Below are positions 22,744-41,963 of a stretch of DNA of 64,000 nt, in pieces; position 1 is the first letter of the stretch, and every line of letters starts with the position of its first letter. The notes under the pieces are model-generated. The model was given only the letters and a program-made list of their open reading frames with translations, made no database searches and had not been told where the DNA came from. A program made the translations under genes and the position numbers. Origin of the DNA: a virus; IMG/VR virus record IMGVR_UViG_3300044769_000143, one strand, 5' to 3'.

Positions 22744-23211
22744 ATGTGCTATAATGGCCGTGTGCGTACCACTACCTTCGAACGTCTCCATGAACGATTC
22801 TGGCAAAAAGTAGATAAGACAGATTCTTGCTGGATTTGGACAGCTGGTAAATACACAAACGGATATGGATCTTTTGGCGTTGGTGAGAATCATTGGTATG
22901 CCCATCGTTTCTCATGGACTATTAGTAATGGTTCAATTCCAGAAGGAAAATATGTTTGTCATCACTGTGATGTTCGAGCCTGTGTAAATCCTGATCATTT
23001 ATTTCTTGGAACTGCAAAAGAAAATTATCAAGATGCCTCTAGAAAAGATAGATTATGTACAAAGAAATTTCTAACTAATGAAGAAGACTTGGAGATCTTT
23101 CAAAGTTCTTTATCAGACGAAGAACTCGCTAAAATCTATGTAGTTTCTCCTAGAGTGATTCGTAACACAAGAATACGCCTTTCTAATATTTACCCTATAT
23201 TTGGCGCTTGA
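22744..23211 (+). CDS. HNH homing endonuclease (paralogue family A) immediately upstream of the terminase genes
   Basis: CWIWTAG...GYGSF...AHRFSWTISNGSIPEGKYVCHHCDVRACVNPDHLFLGTAKEN. AT-rich island. By comparison with its paralogues the true start may be the in-frame GTG at 22762. Confidence 0.85.
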   Translation: MCYNGRVRTTTFERLHERFWQKVDKTDSCWIWTAGKYTNGYGSFGVGENHWYAHRFSWTISNGSIPEGKYVCHHCDVRACVNPDHLFLGTAKENYQDASRKDRLCTKKFLTNEEDLEIFQSSLSDEELAKIYVVSPRVIRNTRIRLSNIYPIFGA

Positions 23212-23237
23212 CACGCTCCCGGCTAGTGTGCTATAGT
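23208..23237 (+). promoter_or_regulatory. Class I promoter at the head of the late (virion) operon
   Basis: TTGACA (23208-23213, overlapping the HNH stop), 18-bp spacer, TGc TATAGT (23232-23237). Lies 35 nt upstream of the 23272 start with AGGAGGG SD. Confidence 0.6.
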
Positions 23238-23271
23238 CGGTTATTCTCTTCCGCCCAGGAGGGTAATTATC

Positions 23272-28455: not shown

Positions 28456-29712
28456 ATGAATGCAGTCGTAGAGACTGGCCGCGAGTTCTGGGGCGCTTCC
28501 GACGGCAAGTGGGCCGGCGAGCAGATGCTCAAGGCTCTCGAAGCTGGTCGCCCATTGGCAGCCAAGGAGCTTCGCGTCGCTTCTACTCTCCGCAAGGATG
28601 AGTGGAAGGTGTTCGACGAGGCTCTCGTCGAGGAAGTTCACTTGCGTCTCCGTGGTGTCGCCGATCTGTACGGGGCGGGCCTCACGAAGAGCATCAGTGG
28701 CGGACTCGGAAAGACGGTCTACGAGTACGAGAAGATGTCCGACATGACGCCTGCCATCGTGTCGATGGACGGCAACGTGCGTTCGGACAACGATCGCGTG
28801 GACTTCAGCCGGGCTGGCATTCCGCTGCCCATCACCCACAAGGACTTCAACCTCAACCTGCGGACGCTTCAGGCCTCCCGCAGCGGCGGTGAAGGCCTCG
28901 ATACCGTTCAACTTCGTGTCTGCGGGCGTCTCATTGCTGAGAAGCTCGAAGACATGCTGTTCAACGGTTCTACCAAGATCTACCAGGGCCTTCCGATCTA
29001 CGGGTACACGACGTTCCCGCAGCGGAACAAGCTCGCCTTCGGTACGGGCGGCGCGTGGTCCTCGGGTAGCAAGACCGGTGAGCAGAAGCTCAACGACGTC
29101 CTTGCGATGATCGCTGCCGCCAACGCCGATCGTATGTACGGACCGTTTGTCCTGTACATCCCGGCGACGGACGCAGTGGCCCTCAACCAGGACTTCAAGA
29201 CAGCTTCCGACAAGTCGGTTCTGTCCCGCCTCCTGGAGATTCCGGAACTCTCCTCGATCCGCACGAGCGACGTTCTCGCTGCGGACAACCTGCTTCTCGT
29301 CCAAATGACGGCGGACAACGTCCAGCTGCTCGTTGGAGAGCCACTGCAGAACATTCAGTGGGACATCAACGGCGGGTTCACCATCGCGTTCAAGAGCTTC
29401 ACGATCCAGGTACCGCTGATTCGTGCTGACGCCGCCGGCCGTTCCGGTATCGTTCACATGAACGTCACCGGCACGTTGCTTCGTGACTCTGGCGATGAGA
29501 TTCGCGCAGCGGTTTCGGACCGCAACCTGAACGAGCCCACGATCGAGGTGGACAAGGCTGGTGTGGTCCGGGCGATTATCGCCAACGACGACACTCTGCC
29601 GGAGAAGCCGGATCAGGGTCTGCCGGGTGACGGGCGTGAGCGTCGTCCGCGGGTGGACAACGAACTTCCGGAGACTCCGGAGCCGAAGAAGACTGGCGAC
29701 GCGAAGAAGTAG
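28456..29712 (+). CDS. Major capsid protein (HK97 fold, encapsulin/DUF2184-like) with disordered C-terminal extension
   Basis: 418 aa. Encapsulin-like N-terminal region (LRKDEWKVFDEALVEE...). Canonical position. Last about 40 aa are Pro/Glu/Lys-rich. Confidence 0.7.
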   Translation: MNAVVETGREFWGASDGKWAGEQMLKALEAGRPLAAKELRVASTLRKDEWKVFDEALVEEVHLRLRGVADLYGAGLTKSISGGLGKTVYEYEKMSDMTPAIVSMDGNVRSDNDRVDFSRAGIPLPITHKDFNLNLRTLQASRSGGEGLDTVQLRVCGRLIAEKLEDMLFNGSTKIYQGLPIYGYTTFPQRNKLAFGTGGAWSSGSKTGEQKLNDVLAMIAAANADRMYGPFVLYIPATDAVALNQDFKTASDKSVLSRLLEIPELSSIRTSDVLAADNLLLVQMTADNVQLLVGEPLQNIQWDINGGFTIAFKSFTIQVPLIRADAAGRSGIVHMNVTGTLLRDSGDEIRAAVSDRNLNEPTIEVDKAGVVRAIIANDDTLPEKPDQGLPGDGRERRPRVDNELPETPEPKKTGDAKK

Positions 29713-29719
29713 GTAAATC

Positions 29720-30235
29720 ATGGACTTTGACGCGACAGTCGGCGGGCCAGACTCCACTAGTTTCGTAACCGTTGAAGAGGCGGATGCATACTTCACGGCA
29801 CACCCGTTTGGAGAAAACTGGTTCGAACTTGATGAGTCGCAGAAAGAGTCCTATCTCATGATGGCTACGCGAACGCTGTCGGCGCAATGCTGGACGGGTC
29901 AGGCGAGTTCGCCTGACCAAGCGCTCGCGTGGCCGCGCACGGGGATGTTGGGTACCAATGGGTACCCAATTCCTTCGGACATTATTCCGAGGGAAATCAA
30001 GTACATGACGTACGAGCTGGCTTTTCGCACCTACTCTGAAGGATCAACTGGTTCTTCGAGTACCGGTGATCAGGGACTCAAGCGAGTGAAGGCTGGTTCA
30101 GTCGAGGTAGAATACTTCAGCCCGGGGAGCATGGAAGGGGCATTCAGTCTCGTACCTTCAGATATCAAGGCGTACGGAAGTGCTTCTTGGTTCTGCACGT
30201 CACCGGGTCAGTTTGCTGAATTCGTGGTAATCTAA
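29720..30235 (+). CDS. Head-tail connector/adaptor (gp6-like)
   Basis: 171 aa. The N-terminal FVTVEEADAYF motif is typical of gp6-like connectors. Position after the MCP. Confidence 0.5.
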   Translation: MDFDATVGGPDSTSFVTVEEADAYFTAHPFGENWFELDESQKESYLMMATRTLSAQCWTGQASSPDQALAWPRTGMLGTNGYPIPSDIIPREIKYMTYELAFRTYSEGSTGSSSTGDQGLKRVKAGSVEVEYFSPGSMEGAFSLVPSDIKAYGSASWFCTSPGQFAEFVVI

Positions 30236-30642
30236 TGGCTGGACTATCTGACGTTCTTCGTAACGGTGTAAAGACGATTTACGGTGTTACGAAGACCGCA
30301 CAGACCAAGATTACTCTACATCGTTGGCAGGGGCAGGGTTACGACGGAGCGCCGAACTATGCGGCTCCTTTGACACTGACAGCGATCGTTGAATACAAAC
30401 AAGAAGCCCGGCAGTCGAATACCGGCCAGCTCAGGACTTCTCGCGCGTATATCATCATTTTATCTCCGCTTTCTGCTTTGGGTGCTGCGGAACGTTCGGA
30501 ACCAATAGATGAAAGAGATTTGATCACACTTCCGAACATGACTACGGGGCCGATCATTGAAACATACGGTGTGATTGACGCCAAGACTCAGTTGCCGTAC
30601 TGCCACGAAATTTGGATGGGAGATCGTAGAGGAGATAATTAG
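30235..30642 (+). CDS. Head completion protein candidate
   Basis: 135-aa ORF coupled by ATG/TAA overlap. The assignment is positional only. Confidence 0.35.
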   Translation: MAGLSDVLRNGVKTIYGVTKTAQTKITLHRWQGQGYDGAPNYAAPLTLTAIVEYKQEARQSNTGQLRTSRAYIIILSPLSALGAAERSEPIDERDLITLPNMTTGPIIETYGVIDAKTQLPYCHEIWMGDRRGDN

Positions 30643-31346
30643 TGAAGCTGCTATCCATCCTGACAGTTACAAAGGCTGAACCGTATGCTGAGTATTTCCT
30701 GAAAAGGATGCAGCAGTTAGCAGTGGCGTCGAACGCTGAACTTGTAATTGCAGGTGATGGAACAGAGGCGATAAATCAACTCAAGCGGTCCGGGTTTGGT
30801 GACGAAGACGTACTTGTTTCGGTGAAGTCCGACGGCTATATCGAAAGCGTGTTGGACGCGGCGGTTCGGTGCTGTAGTGGTAAATATATTCTTAGATTAG
30901 ATGATGACGAAGCTGTTTCTCCGGAGATGTTCAGATGGATAGTCAATCAAAACTTCACGGAAGCGGATCACTGGAAGTTCGCACGGGCTCATTTGTGGCA
31001 CCACGCAAGCTTGTATATCACAAATGGACCCCTGTGGCCGGATCACCAGACACGATTGAGCGTAAGGAAGAAGTCTGGGGGGCGGACGAGTATACATGCA
31101 GGAAGCCCCTTTGGTGGCGGACGTCTGGCTCCGGTAGTTCTTGAGCATTGGAAGTTCCTCGTAAAATCGAGGGAGGAACGACGGGCGATAGCAAATAGAT
31201 ACGATTCTCATGGCATGGGGCTTGGAACGCAGGGTATGCTTTGGTTTAACATACCTGAAGAATCATATGTGAAGATGGAATTGAAAGATATATCTGAAGC
31301 GGCTCTCCAGGCGGTAATTGACGCCGAACAGTGGGTGGAAGCGTGA
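30642..31346 (+). CDS. GT-A-fold (family 2-like) glycosyltransferase
   Basis: 234 aa. GTG start overlapping the upstream TAG, GAGGAG SD. N-terminal Rossmann-like LSILTVTK... and a DxD-type LRLDDDE motif. Confidence 0.55.
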   Translation: MKLLSILTVTKAEPYAEYFLKRMQQLAVASNAELVIAGDGTEAINQLKRSGFGDEDVLVSVKSDGYIESVLDAAVRCCSGKYILRLDDDEAVSPEMFRWIVNQNFTEADHWKFARAHLWHHASLYITNGPLWPDHQTRLSVRKKSGGRTSIHAGSPFGGGRLAPVVLEHWKFLVKSREERRAIANRYDSHGMGLGTQGMLWFNIPEESYVKMELKDISEAALQAVIDAEQWVEA

Positions 31347-31912
31347 ATATTGACCAAGCCTTCGCCTCTGTGAAAAGAACAATGGAGCAATGGCCGAATG
31401 AAATTCGTCCGTTTACTCAGTTTCTTGCAGAAAAGAAGCCGGAGAATATTTTAGAAATTGGTGTAAGAAACGGCGGGACTGCTTCTTTGTGGTGCCATGT
31501 TGCTTCAGGATTAGTGGTTGGGGTTGATTGGGATCAACGTGATAGTTTGGGACATTCCAATACTATTCAACTTTCGAACGCTATGCTGTCGGATTACCCA
31601 AATTATAGATTTGTCTTTGGTGATTCGCACTCGGAAAGTACACGGAAACTCATTGAAAGTTTGGTACCAGAAGTAGATTTCCTGTTCATTGACGGGGACC
31701 ATAGCTACGAGGGCGTAAAGAAAGATTTTGAGATGTACAGTCCGCTGGTTAAATCAGGCGGGTTGATTGCTTTTCACGATATTGTAGATACAGACCTCAT
31801 TCGTAGCGCAGGGCACGGAGTTCATATTTTCTGGCGTCAGCTTAAGGGTAAGAAGACAGAATTCTGCATTAACGGTGCTTGGGGCGGAATCGGCGTTTTG
31901 GAGACTGAATGA
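31331..31912 (+). CDS. Class I SAM-dependent methyltransferase (CmcI/Methyltransf_24-like)
   Basis: Motif I ILEIGVRNGGTA, FIDGDHSYEGV and GGLIAFHD. The start is either GTG 31331 or GTG 31343 (GTGA overlap with the upstream stop). Confidence 0.7.
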   Translation: MGGSVNIDQAFASVKRTMEQWPNEIRPFTQFLAEKKPENILEIGVRNGGTASLWCHVASGLVVGVDWDQRDSLGHSNTIQLSNAMLSDYPNYRFVFGDSHSESTRKLIESLVPEVDFLFIDGDHSYEGVKKDFEMYSPLVKSGGLIAFHDIVDTDLIRSAGHGVHIFWRQLKGKKTEFCINGAWGGIGVLETE

Positions 31913-32697
31913 TCCAGATTCCTCACTTGGAAACGGACATTACTACTGCCTGCCAGCTCTCCTGCGTGGCGTGCAACCATCACGTTCCCCTGTGGCGGAA
32001 AGTTGGACCTAAGCACGCTTCTGTTGAGCAGGTGAAGCGGGATCTGAACCACCTCACTACTATACTACACGCGCACGTGTGGGGAGCGTTGGGTGGGGAG
32101 CCTACCCTGAACCCCGACCTCGTAAATATTCTACAGATTGCTCGTCACAGCGGTATTGCTGACAAGCTCGAGGTGTGGACCAATGGTCTCCTACTCCCTC
32201 GAATGAGCGAAGCGTTCTGGCGTAGCTTTGATGTGCTAGTCCTGTCAATCTATCCAGGTAAGCACACCGAAGAAAGTCTCAAGTGGATCATGACAAAGTG
32301 CGCCACTTCGGGCGTGAAGTTTTCACCCCGTGATGAGACAAAGAATCCAAACTTCCGCACGCTACTCGAGAAGGTTCCCACAGGCTACGAAGAGACAAAG
32401 CGAAAATATGCTGGTTGTTTCTTTCGGCAGTTTTCGCGTGTTGCGAACTGGGGATACTTTTATACATGTTGCTGTGCTCCCCATATGTCTACGCTCGTGC
32501 AGGGAAAAGCGGAAAATCCGGACGGGATTAAAATAGAAGGACTGACTGAAGAAGCGCTGTATGCGTATCTGGCAGACCCAGAGCCGCTTTCAGCATGTAC
32601 AACTTGCGCCGGTCGGGATACTGCGATCAGTATTCCCTGGCGAGAGGAGCGGGATCCAATTAAATGGTTGCGCGCGAGCGCCGGGAGCGTGGCATGA
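31909..32697 (+). CDS. Radical SAM enzyme with Cys-rich C-terminal region
   Basis: CQLSCVAC (CX3CX2C) at residues 15-22 and a GGEPTL SAM-binding motif. C-terminal CCCAP and CTTC clusters. ATGA overlaps at both ends. Confidence 0.7.
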   Translation: MIQIPHLETDITTACQLSCVACNHHVPLWRKVGPKHASVEQVKRDLNHLTTILHAHVWGALGGEPTLNPDLVNILQIARHSGIADKLEVWTNGLLLPRMSEAFWRSFDVLVLSIYPGKHTEESLKWIMTKCATSGVKFSPRDETKNPNFRTLLEKVPTGYEETKRKYAGCFFRQFSRVANWGYFYTCCCAPHMSTLVQGKAENPDGIKIEGLTEEALYAYLADPEPLSACTTCAGRDTAISIPWREERDPIKWLRASAGSVA

Positions 32698-34817
32698 AAG
32701 TATTTCTGAAGACTCAGTATCAGCTCAGCATAGCGATGGACCGCATTGTATCGAACTTGATTCGTTACAAGTCCAGCAAAGTGACGATTGTCAACTCCCC
32801 AGAAGAATCAGATCTGGCTGTTCTGCACGTAATTGGATATGAAGAGACTGCGCAGAGCATCCGTCGACTCACGGCGCTTGGTAAGAAATACGCAATGATT
32901 CAGTATTGCCTGCGTTCTACTGAGGCACAGAGCGCGCAGGAGTGGATTCCATTGTGGACAGAAGCGGCCTTTGTTTGGTCGTACTACGATTTGCCGAAAC
33001 TGTGCAAGGAAGAGGGTCTGGAGTTCCCGGACACACCGTTCTTGTTTGCACCACTTGGTGTCGATACACAGGTGTTTTCCCAGGGACTTAGTCTTGCCAA
33101 GTATCCACACAAGGTTCTCACAACGGGAACAGTCGCGCCAAGTGAGTGCATCGATCTTGTAAATGCGGCGTGTGCTCAGGTAGACACTCGAATGGGTGCC
33201 CACATGCACGTGGGAATCCTGACAGAAACTACCGAAGAATTCAACGGCTCAATTGTCCACTACGAGCATGAAATACCCGATAACAGACTCGCCCAGCTTT
33301 ACCGACAGACAGAATATGTATGCGGACTACGTCGAGTCGAGGGGTTCGAACTCCCAGCAGCAGAGGGACTTCTTTGTGGGACAATTCCTATTCTTTTTGA
33401 CAAGCCTCACTATCGGGATTGGTTTGGCGACTTTGGTGCTTTGTTCATCAAAGAAGGCACTGATGACGAAATCATTCAGAGTCTTGTAGAAATTTTCCAG
33501 AAGCCAAAATCACATTGGCCGCCGAGAGACATCGAGGGTGCCAAGAAGCAGTTCGATTGGCAGCACATTTGTGAAACGTTCTGGGAATTTGCTAACGAAT
33601 TGGTTCCTGTTGATGCATCAACGTCAAATGTCCAGGTTAGTAAGTCCACGCGTCGACTTCTCTGGATTGGTGATGCTGTTGTTTCTACTGGTTTTGCGAA
33701 GTGTACACACCACATCCTCGAAACTGTCCGGCACGAGTGGGATACCTATGTTCTTGGGTTGAACTATTTCGGTGACCCACATCAGTACCCGTATCCGATT
33801 TTCCCCTGTATTCGTGGCACACGAGGTGACATTTTTGGTCTCTCTCGTATTAAATCACTTATAGATTCAATTCGCCCTGAACTTGTGATAGTACAGAATG
33901 ATCCATGGAACTTTCCAGAGTACATGAAAGCCATTGGAAACGTGCCCACCGTTGGTGTTGTTGCGGTAGATGGCAAAAATTGTCGTGGAGAAGGACTAAA
34001 TGGTCTTCTTCATGCGATTTTCTGGACAGACTTTGGCGCGAAAGAGGCAGCACTCGGTGGCTACCGTGGATCGTCTACGGTAATTCCGCTAGGAGTAGAT
34101 AGAGAGATTTTCAAGCCTATCCGTAAAGAACTTGCCCGTCAATCCATGGGTTTGCCCCAGAAGCAGTCAAAAGGTTTTATTGTTGGAAATATCAACCGAA
34201 ATCAGGCTCGGAAACGGCTGGACCTGACGATTCAGTACTTCTGCGAGTGGGTCAAGACCTATCGGGTTGACGACGCATATCTGTATCTGCACATTGCCCC
34301 TACTGCTGATGTAGGGTACGACGCTTCACAGTTGATGCGGTATTACGGATTGACAGGTCGCCTGATTCTCGCGGAACCTGATCCAGGGTTTGGCATTGCC
34401 GAGACGGCGCTCCCGTTTGTCTATAACAGTTTCGATGTCCAGGTCACGACTACTCAGGGCGAAGGCTTTGGACTGACCACCCTCGAAGGTATGGCCTGCG
34501 GTATTCCGCAAATTCTTCCTAACTGGTCAGCACTTGGTGATTTGTTTTCTGATAGCTGTAATATGGTTTCTTGCCCCACTACAGCTTGCACGCCGAACAA
34601 TATCAATGCGGTTGGCGGTGTGCCGGATAAAGATGAATTCATTGGGGCTTTGAACAGTTTGTACAGCAACGAACAGTACCGATCGAATCGTAGTGAACAG
34701 GTGCTTCAGAAAGCTTCTGAGGCGCGATTCGTTTGGAAGAGCGTTGGAGACAAATACATCGAAGCTCTTGAGAATGTTTTTGCGCCGAAAGTGATGGTGA
34801 GTTCAAATGGCCTTTAG
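32694..34817 (+). CDS. Fusion of two GT-B (GT4-like) glycosyltransferase modules
   Basis: 707 aa from MKVFLKT. The first module has RVEGFELPAAEGLLCGTIPI. The second has QGEGFGLTTLEGMACGIPQI (EX7E-type GT4 signatures). Confidence 0.7.
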   Translation: MKVFLKTQYQLSIAMDRIVSNLIRYKSSKVTIVNSPEESDLAVLHVIGYEETAQSIRRLTALGKKYAMIQYCLRSTEAQSAQEWIPLWTEAAFVWSYYDLPKLCKEEGLEFPDTPFLFAPLGVDTQVFSQGLSLAKYPHKVLTTGTVAPSECIDLVNAACAQVDTRMGAHMHVGILTETTEEFNGSIVHYEHEIPDNRLAQLYRQTEYVCGLRRVEGFELPAAEGLLCGTIPILFDKPHYRDWFGDFGALFIKEGTDDEIIQSLVEIFQKPKSHWPPRDIEGAKKQFDWQHICETFWEFANELVPVDASTSNVQVSKSTRRLLWIGDAVVSTGFAKCTHHILETVRHEWDTYVLGLNYFGDPHQYPYPIFPCIRGTRGDIFGLSRIKSLIDSIRPELVIVQNDPWNFPEYMKAIGNVPTVGVVAVDGKNCRGEGLNGLLHAIFWTDFGAKEAALGGYRGSSTVIPLGVDREIFKPIRKELARQSMGLPQKQSKGFIVGNINRNQARKRLDLTIQYFCEWVKTYRVDDAYLYLHIAPTADVGYDASQLMRYYGLTGRLILAEPDPGFGIAETALPFVYNSFDVQVTTTQGEGFGLTTLEGMACGIPQILPNWSALGDLFSDSCNMVSCPTTACTPNNINAVGGVPDKDEFIGALNSLYSNEQYRSNRSEQVLQKASEARFVWKSVGDKYIEALENVFAPKVMVSSNGL

Positions 34818-35232
34818 AGTTACCATCAAGGGCGTTGAACAAATGAAGGGTCGTCTCAACCTTATGGGCTTAAAATTGGAGGGAAACCTTCAGAATGCTC
34901 TGATGGAAGAGATGAAGACAGAACAGGAAGAAGTAATTCGTAGAATTCCAAAAGACACACGTGCTTTGTCACAGTCTACGGAACTGTTCGAGGGAGTAAG
35001 AAAAGGTAGTCCTAATCGGAAGGGCATAGTTGCCGCCACGATTACTGTTGGTAATGACCTAACAAATCCGAAAACAGGTCGTAGAACAGCCGATTATGCA
35101 ATTCAGGTGCATGAAGATTTGGAAGCACACCATAATGAGGGGCAAGCGAAATTTCTTGAGAGTACGCTCAAGGAAGCTGCTCCGTATATGGCTGATCGTG
35201 TAATTCGGCGGTTGGATAAGAAGCTAGGCTAA
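34807..35232 (+). CDS. HK97 gp10-like head-tail joining protein
   Basis: 141 aa. YAIQVHEDLEAHHNEGQAKFLE is characteristic of the gp10 family. Confidence 0.55.
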   Translation: MAFRVTIKGVEQMKGRLNLMGLKLEGNLQNALMEEMKTEQEEVIRRIPKDTRALSQSTELFEGVRKGSPNRKGIVAATITVGNDLTNPKTGRRTADYAIQVHEDLEAHHNEGQAKFLESTLKEAAPYMADRVIRRLDKKLG

Positions 35233-35233
35233 T

Positions 35234-35644
35234 ATGTCATCCACCGATTATCTAAAGATATTCGCACAGCGGCCCTTTGAATTGGGCCTGGATGACAATC
35301 ACCGTATCCGAATTGTGTTCAATATTCGGGTAGAAAAAGTACCATCGGATACGTTCGCCCAGGAAATTCTGTCCATGCTTGTTACGGCTGGTGTTGGGAC
35401 TCTGGGAACTAACCTGTTTCTAAGTTCCTCTGTGACCTTGCCGACTGGTGACGGTCCATATCTGTCGGTCATCGAGACCCCAGGGAGGGAGGGCTCCTAC
35501 ATTCAGAACCAAGGTGCTCCTGCGTATGATCATCCTTCTGCTCAAATTGTTTGTAGAGCGAGGGCCAGGGGTCCTGCCTTTGCCATGGCGACTGCAGCGT
35601 ACAACGCTCTCAAAGGCGTTGTGAATCAAACTGTCACCTTTTAG
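35234..35644 (+). CDS. Tail terminator/completion protein candidate
   Basis: 136-aa ORF immediately before the tail tube gene. The assignment is positional only. Confidence 0.35.
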   Translation: MSSTDYLKIFAQRPFELGLDDNHRIRIVFNIRVEKVPSDTFAQEILSMLVTAGVGTLGTNLFLSSSVTLPTGDGPYLSVIETPGREGSYIQNQGAPAYDHPSAQIVCRARARGPAFAMATAAYNALKGVVNQTVTF

Positions 35645-35652
35645 GAGGTAAC

Positions 35653-36210
35653 ATGTCCGAGGGAATGTCGGCACAGGGAACACTCATCGCGGTCAGTCAT
35701 GACCCCAAGTGGCCCATTATCAACCCGAGCGGTGGGGTTGCTGCGTTCACAAATATCGGCGAGTTGCGCGAGATCACCGCTCCGGCGCTCACGCGTAACA
35801 CGATCGAACTGACGAACCACAACAACGCAGACGACGAATACATTGTTGGTATTCGCCGTCACGGGGACATGACGTTCAACGTCAACTTCGTGCCTCGTAA
35901 TTCTACCATCGATCACCTGACGGGCCTTCAGCAGAAGTGGTTCACAGGTAGTCGTAACATCTACAAGCTGACCTATCCCGACGGAACGGCGTGGATGTTC
36001 AGCGGGTTCATCACGAACTTCGGTGTATCGGCCCCGGTCGATGATCGTCTGTCGGCTGACGTGACGATTCGACCCACCGGAAGGCACGACTGGATCGTTG
36101 GCACGCCAAATCCGCCAACCCTTCTCGATTTCGAGTCGATGACGTCCTTGTCTCCGGACAAGGACAAGGACAGGGACCTCGGTGAGCGGTCCCGTCCGAT
36201 TGCGCCGTAA
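35653..36210 (+). CDS. Major tail (tube) protein with disordered C-terminal extension
   Basis: 185 aa with AGGAGG SD. Position before the chaperones and TMP; TP901-1/lambda-V-like pattern. The last about 36 aa are Pro/Ser/Asp/Lys-rich. Confidence 0.6.
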   Translation: MSEGMSAQGTLIAVSHDPKWPIINPSGGVAAFTNIGELREITAPALTRNTIELTNHNNADDEYIVGIRRHGDMTFNVNFVPRNSTIDHLTGLQQKWFTGSRNIYKLTYPDGTAWMFSGFITNFGVSAPVDDRLSADVTIRPTGRHDWIVGTPNPPTLLDFESMTSLSPDKDKDRDLGERSRPIAP

Positions 36211-37019: not shown

Positions 37020-40000
37020 ATGGGTACTATTGTCCTAGGAACACTCCAGTTTGTCAATCAGGCTTCGCCACAGATTATGGCTGTGGCGAACTCGTTGGAT
37101 ACACTTGGAGCTGCAGCTCGTAGTCTTGGGATGCAGTTGATTGTCTTAGGAGGTACTCTTTACCGTTCTCTAACTGTTCCTTTGATGGGACTTGTTAAAA
37201 TCGGGATAGATTTTGAACATCAGTTTGCCAATGTTGTCAAGACAGTTCAGGGCTTTGGCTATGTAGATGCTTTTGGTAAACTGAATATTCAGGCGAAGGC
37301 ATTTCAGGATCAACTTCGTGAGATGGCAACAAGATTGCCATTTACGCACAAGCAGCTCACAGAGATTGCAGCATTTGGCGGACAGTTCGGCGTACATAAG
37401 CGGGATCTAGCAGATTTTACCGAAACAGTTGCCAAACTTGGTACTACGATTGATGGCATCGAAGTTGAGACTGCTGCAAAAGCTCTGGCCCAGATCAAGA
37501 ACATTACAGGTGATGCTTCCAAAGGCTACGGAAAACTAGCGGCAACTCTCGTCGATCTTGGCAACAAGGGTATCTCTACCGAGGGTACTATCCTCGAAAT
37601 TACCCGACGTATGTCAGGTGCTGGTGCAGTTGCTAAGATGTCTTCGTCTCAGATGTTTGGTTGGTCAGCTGCAGTTGCAAATCTTGGTCATCGTTCAGAG
37701 CTTGGCGGTAATGCGATTGCAAATACCATCCTGAAAGTTTCGCGTTCTGTTGCAGAGGGTGGAGATAAACTTGCTGCACTTGCCAGAATTTCAGGAAAAT
37801 CTGCAAAACAGTTTGCAGAAGATTGGGGTAAAGATGCATCAGCTGCATTGAATCAGTTGCTTACCAGAATTTCCACGATGTCGAAGACTAAAATCCCTTC
37901 GGCAATTTCAGAATTGTTCGGTACATCCGTTCGTCAGAATCAGGTGTTGTTGACTCTTGTCAACACGATGGATGATTTGAACAAGACTCTTGGAGATTCA
38001 GAAACTGCCTATAAAAAAGGCACAGCAATGGAGGACGAGTTTGCGAAGAAGGCAATAACCCTCCAGAATCAGTTAGCAGTTTTGCAGAATCGTGTACGTG
38101 ATGTAGCAATTACGATAGCACAGCCTTTCATGGATGCGCTTCGTGGTGTTATTATTTGGTTGGACCCATTCTTTAAGCATATCGAAAGTCTTGCGAAAAG
38201 TTTTTCTGAATTAGATAAAAGTGCACAACGGATTATTGTAACATTTGCAGTACTTGGCGGAGTTGGAATTCCAACTCTAATAATTGCTGTTGGTGGACTT
38301 TTGTGGGTTTTCGGTTCACTTGTTGGAATTCTTGCTCAGGTTGGCATAGCAATTGCAACTATTGGAGGTTCAGCAGCTACAGCTTCTCTTCTAGGCTGGC
38401 TTACTGCATCTTCTGCTGCGATTGGTGCTTTTGTAGTGAGTGCTTCGACTCTTGTAGGTGTGGTTTTGTTGGTTATAGGAACATTGTACGCTCTTACAAA
38501 AGCTAGAGACGCTGCTTTTGATAGTTGGGTTGCTCCACAAATTATACAGATGGCTCAGGATTTTGGAGTTCTTTCTAAAGAAGTAAAGACGTTTGCATCT
38601 GCTGAAGAAGAAGCGGCATATAAATCAGAACAATTGGGTTTGGCGTATTATGGTCTTCGGCAGAAAGTTATTGATTTTGGTGTGGAGCAGGGTATCATTG
38701 GTGATAAAACTCAGGACATGATCACCAATTGGGATTCGTTGTATTCCAAGTTTGGTAGTGTTTCAAAAATCCTAGATATACTTAGAAGGCAATTTATTGA
38801 CTTCTCCAAGGATGTAGCTCCTCCTGACTGGTTAATGATGATATTGACTGGAGGAGCTGGGGCATGGACTCTCAATGCTATAATGAATGCAAATACGAGA
38901 CGTAACTATGTTCCACCTGCTGGAGCTAATATTGCTCCAAAGGGCTTCAGACTTCCGGCTGAAGATGAAAAAGAACTTGGCGCTTTAATTCCATTTCCAG
39001 AAACAATAGGCCGTCTTCCAAGAATGGGTTTTGGAGGAATGGCCTATAGTGATGTATTTAGCAAGGTCAATAAGGACTTAGCTCTAACAAATCTGTTGAT
39101 GTCTAAGAATCAGGTTATTCAGAGTGACCTGAATGCCATGTTGTTGGAGGAAACTCCATATGAAAGAATGGCAAAAGATGCAAAAGCTGCTTCTGAAGCA
39201 GCTAGAAAAGAGGCTGAAGCTTTAAAGAAGTTGATGGAAAATTTCGAGTTCTATCAGGATATGCACAAAATGATTGGACTTGAAGATTACATGAAGTTCA
39301 ATCGAATGACCATTGCTCTTCAGGATCTTACTTCAAAAGGAATTAAGCCGGGCGCAGCATTCTTTAGAGAATACGGCGATACTGCTGTTAAAGCGGCTGA
39401 TTATATCACAGCAACTGGTGGAACAATTTCTAAAGAAATGAAAGGCATTATTGCTGGATCTGAAGAAAATATAAAGAAACTGAATGAAATATTTTTGGAG
39501 ATGGCAGATCCGAAAAAGTTTAGCACAAAACTTCAGGAATTCGGACTTAGCATATATGAATTCAAACAGGAATTGGATGATCTTCAGTTCGAGCAGTGGG
39601 TTGAACGTCAGACTAACGCAACAGTTCAAGCAATTGCAAAGTGGGAACATGGCTTAAAGGATCTGAAAGAAAAGGTAGATATTAAGCCATCAAATGTTTC
39701 AATTGAATTGTGGGAAAGATACGTAGCTACATTAAATCAGATAGAAGTTGGAAAACTTGCGCGTATTGTCCGCGAGTCGGACGAACTGCGTAAGGTGTAT
39801 GTTCTCTTCTCTAAGCTTCCTGGTGGCGGGTTTGGAATCAAAGCTATTGAAGATTTCTTGAACTTGATGGGTGGTGGTAAGGCGAAAGGTGGGGAAGATG
39901 ATCCTACAAAGAAAATACAGACTGGTATAGAAAAAGTTCACAAACTTGTTAAAGATACTGCTCAGGCATTTAGTAAGCTCAAGAGTATTATGGGAGATAC

Positions 40001-41963
40001 TTGGAATCAGGACTCTCTCATTGCATATATTGCTGAACTTGCTAATGTTGCCAATGTAGCTGGTGAGATTGGGGAACAGTTCGAGGTAAGTTTGAAATTG
40101 TTCAAGGATGCTATATCGGAAGCGGGAGAAAATAAAGGAAAGGATCCAGCTTCTGCGATTGCTGCTGCGATAGGAATGGTCATGGCTGCTGTTCAGGCAT
40201 ATGCGTTATTGCAAACAGCCACAGATAAAGCGAGTAAAGCCCAGCGTGTTCTTGGTGGTGCGATGGCTGGAGCAATGCTTGGCGCCTCGATTGGTGGACG
40301 TGCTGGTATCTACGGAGCAATTGCTGGTTTCGTAGTTGGTGCATTTGTTGGTGCGTTCCGAAAGGTACCGTGGGCTGAAATCGGTCAGCGAGTTGGACAC
40401 GACTTTGGCGTTGCGATTTCTGATTCTCTAGCCAAGACAATTAAAGCTGACGCTGATAAGATATTTGGAGGAGATTGGCAATCAGCTGCAATTTACCACC
40501 TGAAAGAGATTATTGACGCGGCTGGCGGAATTAACAATATAAACTTCGATCAATTGCTCCGAAATCTTCGTGACGCCTTTGTCATGTTGGATCAGGGGCG
40601 AATGACTGCTGGGCAAGTACAGAAGATTCTTGATGATACGTTTGATCAGTTCTTAGCAGAGGGAACTGATGCTCTTGGCTTTGTTAGTACAAAACTTCTA
40701 GAAATTGTTGATCTGTCCCTTAGATTTGGAATTGAATCTAAAAAGATCAAGGAGTTCTTCAAGGCACAGGGTGACAGTCTCATTGATGCCATAAACGTTA
40801 TGGGCAAAATGATGCCCAAACAAGATGCCTGGATGGCTCTTGGTGACACGATTGATTCGGCGAGAAAGGCTATCGAGGAACTGAATAAGACTCCACTCGG
40901 AGAACGTGATGCCGATTGGACGAAGGACATGGCAAAGGAGACAGAGAAGCTCAACAAGGCACTTGCTGAACAGCAGGTGGAAGCTGCTGGTGCCGCGACC
41001 CAGATGGAAAATCTTGGTCTCACAATTGCCGGTACGTTCTTTGCCGCGATCGCCGCCGGCAGGACGTTTAATCAGGCGATGCGTGACGCCAAGGATGGCC
41101 TCGATAGCTTCTTTGGAGCGATGAAAGCTCTTGGCCTTTCATCCAGTGACCCTCTATTAAAGCTCCTCGAAATTCAGTGGAAGGTCCAGCAGGCGATTCC
41201 GAATACTATCGCTGGAGTTGACGCCCTCGGTCAGAGCATCGTTGGCTTGTTCAACATGAAGCTTCTGACGCCGGACATTTTCTCCTCAATTCAGAAGACG
41301 GCGTATGATGCGTACGTAGCGATTCAGGGTCAGGTTGCTGCAGTTGGTGGCACGACGAGGGATGCACTTATCCCGATGCAGGCGTACCTGCAGCAGGCTG
41401 CGAAAGCTGCCAAGGATCTGAATATCCCGCTCGACGAAACTACTCAGATGATGATCGACCAGTCGATTGAACTGGGTATCTGGAAAGAACTTGGCCCGTC
41501 GGCGATGGAGGCACTGACCTCTGCATTGAATACGCTGATTACCCGGTTGGACGTTCTGATTACGCAGTTGATAGATATGCCGGAAGCACCTAATCCGTTT
41601 AGAAATTGGACCGTGCCGCCGGTTCCTGATCCGGAAAATCCGAATGCGCCGATGCCTCCAGGCGGAAATCGCAAGGGGCCACCTGAAGAATTTGCTGGCG
41701 GAACAATCGGTAGTGGTAGTTGGTTCGGTAATTTCGGCGCTGGAACAAATGCTATCCTGCACGGTAGTGAAGCAGTAATCACTCCCGGTCAGGCGGTGCC
41801 ATTCGCAGCGAGTATTCTCGGACAGGACATGTTCGCCGGTTCGAGTGCGTCTTCTGGCGGTCCAATTCCCGTAACGCTTCTGGTGAAGAATCACCGGGTG
41901 CTCACTGAGGTTGTCCTCGAAGATGCGGACAGCTTCCTCGCGTCACGGGGTGTCCGTCGGTGA
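37020..41963 (+). CDS. Tape measure protein
   Basis: 1647 aa, helical with hydrophobic Gly/Ala-rich segments. Position after the G/GT chaperones. The first four fifths are visibly AT-richer than the last fifth. Confidence 0.85.
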   Translation: MGTIVLGTLQFVNQASPQIMAVANSLDTLGAAARSLGMQLIVLGGTLYRSLTVPLMGLVKIGIDFEHQFANVVKTVQGFGYVDAFGKLNIQAKAFQDQLREMATRLPFTHKQLTEIAAFGGQFGVHKRDLADFTETVAKLGTTIDGIEVETAAKALAQIKNITGDASKGYGKLAATLVDLGNKGISTEGTILEITRRMSGAGAVAKMSSSQMFGWSAAVANLGHRSELGGNAIANTILKVSRSVAEGGDKLAALARISGKSAKQFAEDWGKDASAALNQLLTRISTMSKTKIPSAISELFGTSVRQNQVLLTLVNTMDDLNKTLGDSETAYKKGTAMEDEFAKKAITLQNQLAVLQNRVRDVAITIAQPFMDALRGVIIWLDPFFKHIESLAKSFSELDKSAQRIIVTFAVLGGVGIPTLIIAVGGLLWVFGSLVGILAQVGIAIATIGGSAATASLLGWLTASSAAIGAFVVSASTLVGVVLLVIGTLYALTKARDAAFDSWVAPQIIQMAQDFGVLSKEVKTFASAEEEAAYKSEQLGLAYYGLRQKVIDFGVEQGIIGDKTQDMITNWDSLYSKFGSVSKILDILRRQFIDFSKDVAPPDWLMMILTGGAGAWTLNAIMNANTRRNYVPPAGANIAPKGFRLPAEDEKELGALIPFPETIGRLPRMGFGGMAYSDVFSKVNKDLALTNLLMSKNQVIQSDLNAMLLEETPYERMAKDAKAASEAARKEAEALKKLMENFEFYQDMHKMIGLEDYMKFNRMTIALQDLTSKGIKPGAAFFREYGDTAVKAADYITATGGTISKEMKGIIAGSEENIKKLNEIFLEMADPKKFSTKLQEFGLSIYEFKQELDDLQFEQWVERQTNATVQAIAKWEHGLKDLKEKVDIKPSNVSIELWERYVATLNQIEVGKLARIVRESDELRKVYVLFSKLPGGGFGIKAIEDFLNLMGGGKAKGGEDDPTKKIQTGIEKVHKLVKDTAQAFSKLKSIMGDTWNQDSLIAYIAELANVANVAGEIGEQFEVSLKLFKDAISEAGENKGKDPASAIAAAIGMVMAAVQAYALLQTATDKASKAQRVLGGAMAGAMLGASIGGRAGIYGAIAGFVVGAFVGAFRKVPWAEIGQRVGHDFGVAISDSLAKTIKADADKIFGGDWQSAAIYHLKEIIDAAGGINNINFDQLLRNLRDAFVMLDQGRMTAGQVQKILDDTFDQFLAEGTDALGFVSTKLLEIVDLSLRFGIESKKIKEFFKAQGDSLIDAINVMGKMMPKQDAWMALGDTIDSARKAIEELNKTPLGERDADWTKDMAKETEKLNKALAEQQVEAAGAATQMENLGLTIAGTFFAAIAAGRTFNQAMRDAKDGLDSFFGAMKALGLSSSDPLLKLLEIQWKVQQAIPNTIAGVDALGQSIVGLFNMKLLTPDIFSSIQKTAYDAYVAIQGQVAAVGGTTRDALIPMQAYLQQAAKAAKDLNIPLDETTQMMIDQSIELGIWKELGPSAMEALTSALNTLITRLDVLITQLIDMPEAPNPFRNWTVPPVPDPENPNAPMPPGGNRKGPPEEFAGGTIGSGSWFGNFGAGTNAILHGSEAVITPGQAVPFAASILGQDMFAGSSASSGGPIPVTLLVKNHRVLTEVVLEDADSFLASRGVRR

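What the first reader, a model, noticed from the sequence alone, without database searches (positions are those of the whole stretch)
30642..34817. Four-gene glycosyltransferase / methyltransferase / radical-SAM cassette spliced into the virion structural operon
Four translationally coupled genes are inserted between the head-completion genes (29720-30642) and the gp10-like and tail genes (34807 onward). The junction overlaps are TAGTG, GTGA, ATGA and ATGA, and the last gene's stop overlaps the next start. The products are as follows.
- A GT-A-fold glycosyltransferase (LRLDDDE).
- A class I SAM methyltransferase (ILEIGVRNGGTA, FIDGDHSYEGV).
- A radical SAM enzyme (CQLSCVAC, GGEPTL).
- A 707-aa fusion of two GT4-like GT-B modules (EGFELPAAEGLLCG and EGFGLTTLEGMACGIP).

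The block is AT-richer than its flanks, which is consistent with horizontal acquisition. Because it is embedded in the late operon, it should be expressed with the virion proteins. Phage-encoded glycosyltransferases in structural operons that glycosylate capsid and tail proteins have been shown for some mycobacteriophages. I know of no described system that combines three GT modules with a methyltransferase and a radical SAM enzyme. Alternative roles are late remodelling of host envelope glycans, synthesis of an unusual methylated or deoxy sugar, or DNA hypermodification together with the ThyA-like enzyme (63228-) and the kinase (11883-12368).
Basis: partly seen in the sequence, partly recalled or inferred. 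Interest (0 to 1): 0.8.

Follow-up and report, generated by a model that had tools for sequence, protein, structure and literature searches.

The report
Phage glycan cassette with radical-SAM enzyme
An uncultured tailed phage carries, between its neck and tail genes, a co-translated set of three sugar-transferase modules, a methyltransferase and a radical-SAM enzyme related to sugar dehydrogenases/epimerases; it most likely builds an unusual glycan on the virus particle, and no deposited phage genome has this enzyme.

Summary
Four overlapping genes lie at 30642-34817 between the head-tail adaptor genes and the tail genes.

**Fold and family calls all hold:**
- GT-A glycosyltransferase.
- CmcI / rhamnosyl-O-methyltransferase-type methyltransferase.
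- Radical SAM enzyme.
- A 707-aa fusion of two EX7E GT-B modules.

**New findings:**
- The radical SAM enzyme is a twitch-domain enzyme. Its closest solved relative is SpeY, a sugar dehydrogenase (E=1e-22, TM 0.78).
- Its family has more than 330 metagenomic members and none in 50,697 deposited phage genomes.
- It always travels with the GT-A partner (22 of 22 informative loci). The methyltransferase and GT4 module come and go, and the fusion is two genes in many relatives.
- In this capsid lineage the neck-tail junction is a hypervariable sugar-enzyme island. Relatives carry aminotransferase, acetyltransferase, C-methyltransferase, GT11 or GT2 genes there. Two relatives have no island.

- Low GC is not specific to the cassette.
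- "3 GT + methyltransferase" is already described in cluster O mycobacteriophages.

**Best reading (0.55):** virion-protein glycosylation, with the attached sugar epimerised or oxidised by the radical SAM enzyme. DNA and host-envelope targets are not excluded. The target itself is inferred, not shown. This is a new variant of a known kind.

The parts
30642..31346 (+). GT-A-fold glycosyltransferase (234 aa) with an invariant RLDDDE (DXD) motif. It is the obligate partner of the radical SAM enzyme.
   Evidence: Pfam GT2 hit is weak (E=1.2e-3, below cut-off). The AlphaFold model has pLDDT 94.6. All top Foldseek PDB hits are GT-A/GT2 enzymes: K4CP, TarP, SpsA, WrtF and SunS, at E about 5e-7 and TMq 0.4-0.58. 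D87, D88, D89 and E90 are invariant in 24 homologs. It is present next to the radical SAM gene in 22 of 22 informative loci.
31343..31912 (+). Class I SAM methyltransferase of the Methyltransf_24 / rhamnosyl-O-methyltransferase-CmcI family (189 aa from GTG 31343; an alternative GTG lies at 31331). Accessory element.
   Evidence: Pfam PF13578 E=3e-15 and PF04989 E=4.7e-9, both above cut-off. Closest PDB chains are O-methyltransferases 2gpy and 6g7d, at E about 5e-5. It is absent from the closest relative L007. It is replaced by other methyltransferase families in L022 and L142 and fused to GT-A in L014. It has the lowest GC of the cassette, 0.442.
31909..32697 (+). Twitch-domain radical SAM enzyme (262 aa), a homolog of the sugar dehydrogenase SpeY. 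It has the CX3CX2C cluster (C15/C19/C22) and candidate auxiliary-cluster cysteines C170/C187/C230/C233, plus family-specific C188/C189.
   Evidence: phmmer against PDB: 7wzv, E=1.1e-22 over residues 7-236. The model has pLDDT 89.2. Foldseek finds SpeY (7wzx/7x0b/7wzv) at E about 6e-22, TMq 0.78, followed by BtrN. Invariant residues are listed. More than 330 homologs share 57-78% identity. No deposited phage genome has it.
32694..33680 (+). N-terminal module of the 707-aa fusion. It is a short GT-B/GT4-like glycosyltransferase with an invariant EX7E motif (EGFELPAAE). In many relatives it is a separate gene of about 290 aa.
   Evidence: A profile of 22 homologs matches the donor-binding domain of MshA (7qsg) at E=1.6e-9. 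phrog_4356 glycosyltransferase, E=1.6e-9. E216, E219 and E224 are invariant. It is present in 20 of 23 informative radical SAM loci. It has no tblastn match in deposited phages.
33681..34817 (+). C-terminal module of the fusion. It is a full GT4 (GT-B) glycosyltransferase with the EX7E motif EGFGLTTLE. Accessory element.
   Evidence: Pfam Glycos_transf_1 E=2.8e-12, Glyco_trans_1_4 E=7e-10 and GT4-conflict E=7e-9. phrog_2170, E=4e-32. PDB 3oy2, chlorovirus NY-2A B736L, E=7e-14 over residues 338-700. 31% identity to Synechococcus phage S-CBS4 gp014. Found in 17 of 22 informative loci.
29720..30642 (+). Upstream boundary: head-tail adaptor Ad1 (29720-30235) and an unknown 135-aa neck protein (30235-30642).
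   Evidence: phrog_477, E=3e-34, and Pfam DnaT_2, E=2e-29. Orthologs flank the island in relatives.
34807..35644 (+). Downstream boundary: gp10/Neck1-like tail-completion protein (34807-35232) and tail terminator (35234-35644).
   Evidence: Weak hits to phrog_5 (7e-4) and PF12691 (3e-4). Orthologs in relatives carry HK97-gp10_like and Phage_tail_terminator_6 hits.

Best explanation
The block is one allele of a hypervariable glycan-biosynthesis island. In this lineage of uncultured siphoviruses the island sits at the neck-tail junction of the late structural operon.

The enzymes are soluble and translationally coupled to the virion genes. They most likely build a short, unusual glycan on virion proteins (capsid, tail tube or neck) in the cytoplasm during assembly.

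**Proposed order of steps.**
1. The GT-A enzyme transfers a common host nucleotide-sugar onto the acceptor.
2. The twitch radical SAM enzyme abstracts a hydrogen from a carbinol carbon of that attached sugar. It then either epimerises it (favoured) or oxidises it to a keto-sugar. This yields a sugar the host does not supply, so the phage needs no nucleotide-sugar pathway of its own.
3. The short EX7E glycosyltransferase and the GT4 module extend the glycan.
4. The CmcI-type methyltransferase O-methylates a sugar hydroxyl.

**Shown.** Gene structure, folds and families, conserved catalytic motifs, the obligatory GT-A/radical SAM pairing, the alternative fusions, the position of the island and its variability.

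**Inferred.** The acceptor (virion protein), the order of steps, epimerase versus dehydrogenase, and the biological role. By analogy with mycobacteriophages, that role could be shielding or antigenic and receptor-interaction diversification of the particle.
For: **Gene structure.** Gene overlaps were read directly. There are no above-chance transcription signals inside or around the block.

**Folds.** GT-A; twitch radical SAM closest to SpeY and then BtrN, both sugar/cyclitol dehydrogenases; GT4 modules with EX7E; CmcI / rhamnosyl O-methyltransferase family.

**Solubility.** All four proteins lack hydrophobic segments (maximum KD19 of 1.25 or less).

**Functional linkage.**
- GT-A is adjacent to the radical SAM gene in 22 of 22 informative loci, and the N-half GT in 20 of 23.
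- Rosetta-stone fusions occur: GT-A+MT and N-half+GT4.

**Position.** Of about 25 distinct contexts, 21 place the cassette between the capsid/adaptor genes and the tail genes. These include a different structural chassis (PF05065 capsid with a Phage_tail_2 tube). Two more lie elsewhere in the head module (L009, L017).

**Variability.** In MCP relatives the same junction carries other sugar-tailoring sets: a DegT aminotransferase (5e-108) with a hexapeptide acetyltransferase, an NDP-hexose C-methyltransferase (1e-44), GT11, GT2, FkbM methyltransferases, a nucleotidyltransferase and a PhyH dioxygenase. L081 and L090 carry nothing there.

**No own sugar pathway.** No nucleotide-sugar synthesis gene and no integrase were found in the window.

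**Precedents.**
- Cluster O mycobacteriophage O-MT + 3 GTs lie within the structural operon, are absent from virions, and modify capsid and tail tube (PMC4351075, PMC11600133).
- PBCV-1 A064R (GT-A + GT + 2-O-methyltransferase) builds the capsid glycan (PMC9614988).

**Epimerase lean.** C188 and C189 are invariant and lie next to the auxiliary-cluster ligand C187, where SpeY has Pro-Gln. HygY, a twitch epimerase, becomes a dehydrogenase when one cysteine is mutated (title of Besandre 2021, cited in PMC10991966).
Against: - No direct evidence identifies the acceptor.
- No conserved acceptor gene or sequence feature co-varies with the cassette. The C-terminal extensions of capsid and tube seen here are absent from L008 and L010.
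- In two contexts (L019, L022) the radical SAM cassette lies beside primase, SNF2 and dNTP-pyrophosphohydrolase genes rather than at the neck junction.
- The window encodes a very diverged thymidylate-synthase-family protein that could be a pyrimidine hydroxymethylase.
- Gene position predicts the target only weakly.
- Identity to SpeY is only 25%, so substrate and chemistry are extrapolated.
- Pfam scores for the GT2 and Radical_SAM domains are below the curated cut-offs.
- The epimerase-versus-dehydrogenase call rests on two cysteines whose position in the active site I could not inspect.
Confidence: 0.55

Rival explanations
1. DNA hypermodification. The glycosyltransferases, methyltransferase and radical SAM enzyme decorate a hydroxymethylated pyrimidine in phage DNA after replication, with the base supplied by the diverged ThyA-like enzyme. 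The modification would protect the genome from host nucleases.
For: - The ThyA-like protein (63228-63995) is highly diverged. It lacks about 80 N-terminal residues and scores almost as well against CMP 5-hydroxymethylase (5b6d, 2e-8) as against thymidylate synthase (5e-10).
- A P-loop kinase lies at 11883-12368.
- In L019 and L022 the cassette sits next to primase, SNF2 and dATP/dGTP diphosphohydrolase genes.
- Phage GTs that put diverse glycans on DNA are documented (Pyle 2024, cited in PMC12619734).
Against: - In the window the cassette lies about 28 kb from the ThyA-like gene, on the opposite strand, and is translationally coupled to neck and tail genes.
- 21 of about 25 contexts are at the head-tail junction.
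- None of the 16 viral contigs with ThyA-like homologs is a cassette-bearing contig. This is weak evidence because the method has limited reach.
- Allelic islands at the same junction carry GT11, DegT, acetyltransferase and C-methyltransferase genes, which are typical of protein or polysaccharide glycans.
- phrog_5131 labels the ThyA-like protein a thymidylate synthase (4e-74).
- No aGPT-Pplase-like or other known DNA-hypermodification enzyme was found in the window.
Confidence: 0.12
2. Remodelling of a host envelope glycan late in infection. The target would be teichoic acid, LPS or capsule precursors on the cytoplasmic face. The effect would be to mask receptors, so that progeny are not lost on debris or so that superinfection is blocked.
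For: - Structural neighbours of the GT-A enzyme include the prophage-encoded wall-teichoic-acid glycosyltransferase TarP and the polysaccharide polymerases K4CP and RmlT.
- Soluble cytoplasmic GTs can act on lipid-linked precursors.
- Hypervariability like that of O-antigen loci would also fit an arms race at the cell surface.
Against: - No integrase or lysogeny functions were found in the window. Serotype-converting GTs are typically lysogeny-expressed morons.
- The cassette has no membrane protein, flippase or polymerase.
- It is embedded by overlapping codons in the late virion operon rather than carried as an autonomous moron.
- It transfers between phages with different chassis but stays at the capsid-tail boundary.
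Confidence: 0.13
3. Synthesis of a free glycosylated small molecule or modified nucleotide-sugar, for example an aminoglycoside-like or signalling metabolite, rather than modification of a macromolecule.
For: The closest characterised relatives of the radical SAM enzyme (SpeY, BtrN and, by title, HygY) all act in aminoglycoside/aminocyclitol pathways. A Foldseek hit of the GT-A model is AvpGT, bound to the nucleoside Ara-A.
Against: - The cassette has no cyclitol synthase, aminotransferase or exporter.
- The rSAM family was found in only one contig of the 185,579-species genome collection, and that contig looks phage-like. This argues against a metabolic pathway borrowed from cells.
- Placement in the structural operon has no rationale under this model.
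Confidence: 0.08

Closest known systems
Cluster O mycobacteriophage (Corndog) gp35-38: an O-methyltransferase plus three glycosyltransferases that modify capsid and tail-tube subunits (PMC4351075; PMC11600133, citing Freeman et al. 2023, PMID 37329881)
   Same: It is a phage-encoded methyltransferase plus three GT modules embedded in the virion structural operon. The enzymes are not virion components. It is the functional model for glycosylation of structural proteins.
   Different: - Corndog's genes lie between portal and protease, not at the neck-tail junction.
- Corndog has no radical SAM enzyme.
- There is no detectable sequence relationship. tblastn of the MT, GT-A, N-half GT and radical SAM proteins found no actinobacteriophage hit.
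- Virion glycosylation is demonstrated there and only inferred here.
Chlorovirus capsid glycosylation enzymes: PBCV-1 A064R (GT-A rhamnosyltransferase + second rhamnosyltransferase + 2-O-methyltransferase), A061L, and NY-2A B736L (PMC9614988)
   Same: A virus-encoded, soluble, multi-domain GT/GT/MT machinery builds a methylated glycan on the major capsid protein. The C-terminal GT4 module here is a sequence homolog of B736L (3oy2, E=7e-14).
   Different: It belongs to a eukaryotic giant virus, the genes are expressed early and are not in a structural operon, and there is no radical SAM enzyme. Homology is limited to the GT4 module.
Twitch radical SAM carbohydrate enzymes: SpeY (spectinomycin, PDB 7wzv/7wzx/7x0b), BtrN (4m7t) and HygY (epimerase)
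   Same: The core has the same fold over its full length, followed by a C-terminal single auxiliary-cluster (twitch) domain. The CX3CX2C motif and four auxiliary cysteines are shared with SpeY.
   Different: - Identity to SpeY is 25%.
- The phage protein is 262 aa, against 322 aa for SpeY.
- It has two extra invariant cysteines (C188, C189).
- It is encoded by phages next to glycosyltransferases, not in an actinomycete aminoglycoside cluster.
- Its substrate is unknown.
Synechococcus siphovirus S-CBS4 gp014-gp016 (GT4, 'galactosyl transferase', SAM methyltransferase, located between portal and protease)
   Same: It is a GT/GT/MT trio inside the structural module of an environmental siphovirus. 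gp014 is 31% identical to the C-terminal GT4 module.
   Different: It has no radical SAM enzyme. Its gp015 and gp016 are not detectably homologous to the GT-A and MT here. It sits at a different junction, and its function is untested.

Membership tests
Radical SAM superfamily | CX3CX2C motif binding the SAM-cleaving [4Fe-4S] cluster | tested here: met
   C15-X3-C19-X2-C22 is invariant in 23 homologs and aligns with the SpeY motif.
Radical SAM superfamily | Score above the Pfam PF04055 gathering threshold | tested here: not met
   25.3 bits against a cut-off of 29.5. This is outweighed by E=1e-22 to a solved radical SAM enzyme and by the invariant GGEP SAM-binding motif.
Twitch-domain radical SAM carbohydrate dehydrogenases/epimerases (SpeY, BtrN, HygY) | C-terminal domain with cysteines for a single auxiliary [4Fe-4S] cluster, and whole-length fold similarity | tested here: met
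   C170, C187, C230 and C233 are invariant and align with SpeY cysteines. Foldseek finds SpeY at E about 6e-22, TMq 0.78, and BtrN at 2.7e-7. Actual cluster binding cannot be tested here.
Twitch-domain radical SAM carbohydrate dehydrogenases/epimerases (SpeY, BtrN, HygY) | H-atom abstraction from a sugar or cyclitol carbinol carbon, leading to oxidation or epimerisation | not testable with these tools
   This needs anaerobic reconstitution with a candidate glycosylated substrate. It is inferred only from homology and from the obligatory pairing with a glycosyltransferase.
GT-A fold glycosyltransferases (GT2-like) | Single Rossmann-like GT-A fold with a DXD metal/nucleotide-sugar motif | tested here: met
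   The model has pLDDT 94.6. All top PDB matches are GT-A enzymes. D87-D88-D89-E90 are invariant. The Pfam GT2 score of 19.2 is below the 23.3 cut-off.
GT4 / GT-B glycosyltransferases | Glycos_transf_1 donor domain with the EX7E motif; two Rossmann domains | tested here: met
   C-module: PF00534 scores 47 bits, above 26.4; it matches 3oy2 over 363 residues; the motif is EGFGLTTLE.
GT4 / GT-B glycosyltransferases | The same features, for the N-terminal module (about 290 aa when free-standing) | tested here: inconclusive
   The donor domain and invariant EX7E are present: the profile matches MshA 7qsg at 1.6e-9 over positions 113-284. Only about 110 residues precede it, so a complete acceptor Rossmann domain is not demonstrated.
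Rhamnosyl O-methyltransferase / CmcI family (PF04989, Methyltransf_24) | Class I SAM methyltransferase fold matching the family above threshold | tested here: met
   PF13578 scores 57.4 bits (cut-off 26.3) and PF04989 scores 36.7 bits (cut-off 23.2). The NCBIfam rhamnosyl O-MT equivalog is not reached (22.6 against 400), so substrate specificity is not assigned.
Mycobacteriophage-type virion glycosylation system | Glycans covalently attached to capsid or tail subunits, dependent on the phage GTs | not testable with these tools
   This requires virion glycoproteomics. Only position and analogy support it here.
Mycobacteriophage-type virion glycosylation system | Sequence homology to the Corndog/Che8 enzymes | tested here: not met
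   tblastn of each module against 50,697 phage genomes gave no mycobacteriophage hit. The cassette is analogous to that system, not a member by descent.
Phage DNA hypermodification (hydroxymethylpyrimidine glycosylation) | A pyrimidine hydroxymethylase plus DNA glycosyltransferases encoded together with nucleotide-metabolism genes | tested here: inconclusive
   The ThyA-like protein is ambiguous. In the window the cassette is not adjacent to it. Two of about 25 related contexts are in replication modules. No co-occurrence was found on viral contigs.

The most novel reading that the evidence does not exclude
A phage-encoded twitch radical SAM enzyme edits a sugar after it has been attached to a virion protein, by epimerisation or oxidation. 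It would act as the invariant partner of a GT-A transferase.

This would be the first radical SAM step in any viral glycosylation pathway. It would also be a way for a small phage to display a rare sugar without carrying a nucleotide-sugar pathway. The cassette would be one allele of an O-antigen-like, hypervariable 'virion serotype' island at the neck-tail junction of a widespread uncultured siphovirus lineage.
Probability: 0.35. Interest if true: 0.78.

Novelty: new variant of a known kind. Interest (0 to 1): 0.6.

Why it matters
**What is already known.** Phage virion glycosylation has been demonstrated only in a few mycobacteriophages, where it dampens antibody recognition.

**What is new here.** A large uncultured siphovirus lineage keeps a hypervariable sugar-enzyme island at a fixed place in its structural operon. 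One recurrent allele contains a radical SAM enzyme of the carbohydrate dehydrogenase/epimerase type that no deposited phage genome carries.

**What would follow if the target is the virion.**
- Particle glycosylation would be common in environmental phages.
- It would diversify like bacterial O-antigens.
- It could use radical chemistry to make rare sugars in place.

**Wider relevance.** This bears on phage-host recognition, phage stability and immunogenicity in therapy. It also offers a compact, self-contained GT + radical SAM pair for glyco-engineering. The family of more than 330 members gives radical SAM enzymology a new, well-conserved subfamily with an obvious partner enzyme to help find its substrate.

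Tried and rejected
**Searches that found nothing.**
- Megablast of 26-40 kb against 50,697 phage genomes gave no match. tblastn of the GT-A and N-half GT also gave no match. The radical SAM protein gave only a 29% N-terminal hit to a cyanomyovirus maturase.
- PDB codes 7WZV, 7WZX and 7X0B were not found in the paper library. SpeY was identified only through the Foldseek entry title.
- The SpeY, HygY and Freeman 2023 papers are not held. Their content is therefore cited only through titles and citing papers.
- The GTDB genome scan for the radical SAM gene found one locus only, a phage-like 36.7-kb contig binned with a Saccharibacteria MAG. This gives no reliable host and no cellular gene-cluster context.

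**Ideas rejected.**
- The horizontal-transfer argument from GC content is rejected, because the neck, tail-chaperone and tape-measure genes are equally AT-rich.
- 'The cassette always lies in the structural operon' is rejected as absolute. L019 and L022 are exceptions.
- 'The GT-A partner always comes with the radical SAM enzyme' holds in one direction only. GT-A homologs occur without a radical SAM gene in L087, L091-93, L095 and L100.
- I looked for a conserved acceptor signature in the C-terminal extensions of capsid and tube. They are present in the window and L007 but absent from L008 and L010, so this was not pursued.

**Inconclusive or chance-level results.**
- The ThyA co-occurrence test on viral contigs is inconclusive because the pattern-based search is short-ranged.
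- The promoter/terminator scan gave counts at chance level.

**Not done.** The representative-library HMM search was not run, because it returns no context or names.

Full report
**1. Observation**

Reading the junctions base by base gave these results:
- The stop of the 135-aa neck gene (TAG, 30640-42) overlaps the GTG start at 30642.
- The GT-A stop (TGA, 31344-46) overlaps a GTG at 31343.
- The methyltransferase stop (TGA, 31910-12) overlaps the ATG at 31909.
- The radical SAM stop (TGA, 32695-97) overlaps the ATG at 32694.
- The next gene starts at 34807, 11 nt before the stop at 34815-17.

Homologs of the last protein begin MKV..., so the 707-aa form is the correct one.

- Major capsid protein (DUF6260 / HK97-like), 28456-29712.
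- Head-tail adaptor Ad1, 29720-30235.
- An unknown 135-aa protein.
- After the cassette: a gp10/Neck1-like protein, tail terminator, tail tube, chaperones and tape measure.

The compositional claim holds only against the upstream flank. The cassette genes are 44-53% GC. However, g135, g141, T, the tape measure and the next tail gene are 45-50% as well.

**2. What the proteins are**

*GT-A enzyme.* Sequence alone supports it only weakly: Pfam GT2 E=1e-3 (below cut-off), and a 24-sequence profile gives a best PDB E of 0.03. A confident model (pLDDT 94.6) matches only GT-A/GT2 enzymes: K4CP, TarP, SpsA, WrtF and SunS. The RLDDDE motif is invariant.

*Methyltransferase.* It is a clear member of Methyltransf_24 and the rhamnosyl-O-methyltransferase/CmcI family. 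It does not reach the rhamnosyl O-MT equivalog score.

*Radical SAM enzyme.*
- Its near-full-length relative in the PDB is 7wzv (E=1e-22). The Foldseek entry title identifies that structure as 'Twitch Radical SAM Dehydrogenase SpeY'. The match has TMq 0.78, and BtrN comes next.
- Besides the CX3CX2C triad, C170, C187, C230 and C233 are invariant and align with SpeY cysteines. They are therefore the likely auxiliary-cluster ligands.
- C188 and C189 are invariant in the phage family but are Pro-Gln in SpeY.

*The 707-aa protein.* It has two EX7E modules.
- The C-module is a standard GT4. It is homologous to chlorovirus B736L and to S-CBS4 gp014.
- The N-module matches the donor domain of MshA through a profile (E=1.6e-9). 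Only about 110 residues precede that domain.

All four proteins are soluble.

**3. Comparative anatomy**

*Distribution of the radical SAM family.*
- It has more than 330 members at 57-78% identity. Almost all are about 262 aa, and many sit on contigs of 55-75 kb.
- It is absent from 50,697 deposited phage genomes.
- It occurs in one contig only of the 185,579-species genome collection, and that contig looks phage-like.

*Cassette composition.* I examined about 30 distinct loci.

| Module | Loci with the module | Notes |
|---|---|---|
| GT-A partner | 22 of 22 informative | Always accompanies the radical SAM gene |
| N-half-type GT | 20 of 23 informative | |
| Methyltransf_24 MT | about 15 of 24 | Absent from the closest relative L007. 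Replaced by Methyltransf_9/23 types in L022 and L142. Duplicated in L140. |
| GT4 | 17 of 22 | |

*Fusions.* They differ between phages: GT-A+MT proteins of 412-434 aa and N-half+GT4 proteins of about 717 aa. These fusions argue that the enzymes act in one pathway.

*Conservation.* The radical SAM enzyme is the most conserved protein of the region. In L008 it is 67% identical, against 31% for the capsid protein.

**4. Position**

- In 21 of about 25 distinct contexts the cassette lies between the capsid/adaptor genes and the tail genes. One of these is a phage with a different capsid family (PF05065) and a different tube family (Phage_tail_2).
- Two further contexts lie elsewhere in the head module (L009, L017).
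- Two contexts (L019, L022) lie beside Pam3_Gp34-like, primase, SNF2 and dATP/dGTP-diphosphohydrolase genes.

A capsid-profile scan of IMG/VR found 498 relatives, and I fetched the best 80. Only 5 of the 80 have the radical SAM cassette within the stretch fetched. About 31 have some homolog of GT4, the N-half GT or GT-A downstream of the capsid gene.

At the same g135|g141 junction, relatives carry the following:
- GT4 alone; GT4 + GT-A + GT11 + up to three methyltransferases.
- N-half + GT4 preceded by a DegT-type sugar aminotransferase (5e-108) and a hexapeptide acetyltransferase.
- A GT2 + NDP-hexose C-methyltransferase + GT4 set.
- A nucleotidyltransferase-methyltransferase fusion.
- A PhyH dioxygenase.

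L081 and L090 have no glycosyltransferase there. Their junction holds only two small ORFs, a gp10-like gene and a muramidase.

The junction is therefore an accessory, hypervariable glycan-enzyme island. The window's cassette is one allele of it.

**5. Mechanism**

The island alleles are made of enzymes that build or tailor sugars, so a glycan product is well supported.

The radical SAM enzyme's solved relatives abstract hydrogen from carbinol carbons of glycosides or cyclitols. Its invariable association with a GT-A transferase suggests that it edits the sugar which that transferase installs or uses.

The window has no nucleotide-sugar pathway gene. Editing the sugar after transfer would therefore give the phage a rare sugar at low genomic cost.

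I favour epimerisation over net oxidation, for two reasons:
- No aminotransferase or reductase is present in this allele to use a keto-sugar.
- The family has two extra invariant cysteines. HygY, a twitch epimerase, uses a single cysteine, and losing it unmasks dehydrogenase activity (paper title cited in PMC10991966).

This point is inference.

The acceptor is also inferred. Several things point to virion proteins:
- The overlapping codons with neck and tail genes.
- The absence of above-chance internal transcription signals.
- The persistence of the position across different structural chassis.
- The soluble enzymes and the absence of lysogeny functions.
- The Corndog and chlorovirus precedents (PMC4351075, PMC11600133, PMC9614988).

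**6. Rivals**

*DNA hypermodification.* Three observations keep it alive:
- The two replication-module contexts.
- A very diverged thymidylate-synthase-family protein (63228-63995). It scores nearly as well against CMP hydroxymethylase as against TS and lacks the N-terminal ~80 residues.
- A P-loop kinase at 11883-12368.

Against it, the window shows no adjacency between these genes and the cassette. No co-occurrence appeared on viral contigs (weak evidence), and the allelic enzyme sets look like protein or polysaccharide glycan pathways.

*Host-envelope remodelling.* It fits the GT-A neighbours (TarP) and the hypervariability. It does not fit the late-operon coupling, the lack of membrane components or the lack of lysogeny genes.

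*A free small-molecule product.* This is the least likely reading.

**7. Comparison and novelty**

'Methyltransferase + three GTs in a phage structural operon' is already described for cluster O mycobacteriophages and was later shown to modify capsid and tube.

Three things are new:
- A twitch radical SAM carbohydrate-type enzyme as the conserved core of a phage glycosylation cassette. It was found in no deposited phage and in no paper retrieved.
- Its obligatory GT-A partner and the short EX7E GT, neither of which has a homolog in deposited phages.
- The recognition that the neck-tail junction of this abundant uncultured lineage is an O-antigen-like variable island.

The cassette is analogous to the mycobacteriophage system, not homologous to it. 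I rate it a new variant of a known kind, with interest 0.6. The main uncertainty is the target of the glycan, which only experiments can settle.

Noticed in passing
window 63228-63995 (-): The thymidylate-synthase-family protein is very diverged. Its best PDB match to TS is only 5e-10, and CMP 5-hydroxymethylase MilA scores 2e-8. It lacks the N-terminal ~80 residues of TS and has PCN where TS has PCH. It could be a pyrimidine hydroxymethylase rather than a true ThyA. It lies next to a DUF3310 protein (62796-63227), an HNH endonuclease and an exonuclease.
   Followed up: partly
window 42-806 (-) and 863-1348 (-); L019 3281-4069; L022 859-1785: A Pam3_Gp34-like protein (PF23977, 2.5e-33) and a 'minor head protein'-like ORF (phrog_13900) sit beside the VapE primase. 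In two other phages (L019, L022) the radical SAM cassette is inserted next to the homologous Pam3_Gp34-like gene. This may be a second preferred insertion site.
   Followed up: partly
window 51562-52017 (+): This tail-region ORF has an Mtd_N (major tropism determinant N-terminal) domain (E=7e-8). No reverse transcriptase was seen among the scanned ORFs, so a diversity-generating retroelement is not evident.
   Followed up: no
window 8401-8880 (-), 22744-23211 (+), 62118-62573 (-): Three HNH homing-type endonuclease genes are scattered through the genome. One lies immediately upstream of the terminase.
   Followed up: no
window 23208-23240 (+): This is the only strong sigma-70-like site in 23-42.5 kb (TTGACA-18-TATAGT, 11 of 12 matches, with an extended-10 TG). 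It lies about 520 bp upstream of the large terminase gene and overlaps a terminator-like hairpin. It may be the start of the late operon that includes the cassette.
   Followed up: no
window 28456-29712 and 35653-36210: The capsid protein has a ~80-residue C-terminal tail beyond the DUF6260 domain, and the tail tube protein has a ~35-residue tail beyond the TTP_12 domain. Mycobacteriophage glycans attach to the C-termini of exactly these two proteins. However, the extensions are missing in cassette-bearing relatives L008 and L010.
   Followed up: partly
window 37020-41963: The tape-measure gene is the most AT-rich part of the window, down to 39% GC with GC3 of 0.39. The capsid and tube genes have GC3 of 0.71-0.77. 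Codon composition therefore varies strongly within one operon, which makes GC a poor marker of horizontal transfer here.
   Followed up: yes
L010 6708-7004 / L011 3791-4087: In one relative a 98-aa protein with a Pfam BubE hit (PF20137) is inserted between the methyltransferase and the radical SAM gene.
   Followed up: no
L012 (CAYWVZ010000008.1, 36.7 kb): The only hit in the 185,579-species genome collection is a contig binned into a 'Candidatus Saccharibacteria' MAG. Across the 16.8-kb stretch fetched it shows phage structural genes (portal to tape measure), which suggests a mis-binned phage contig or a possible host clue.
   Followed up: no
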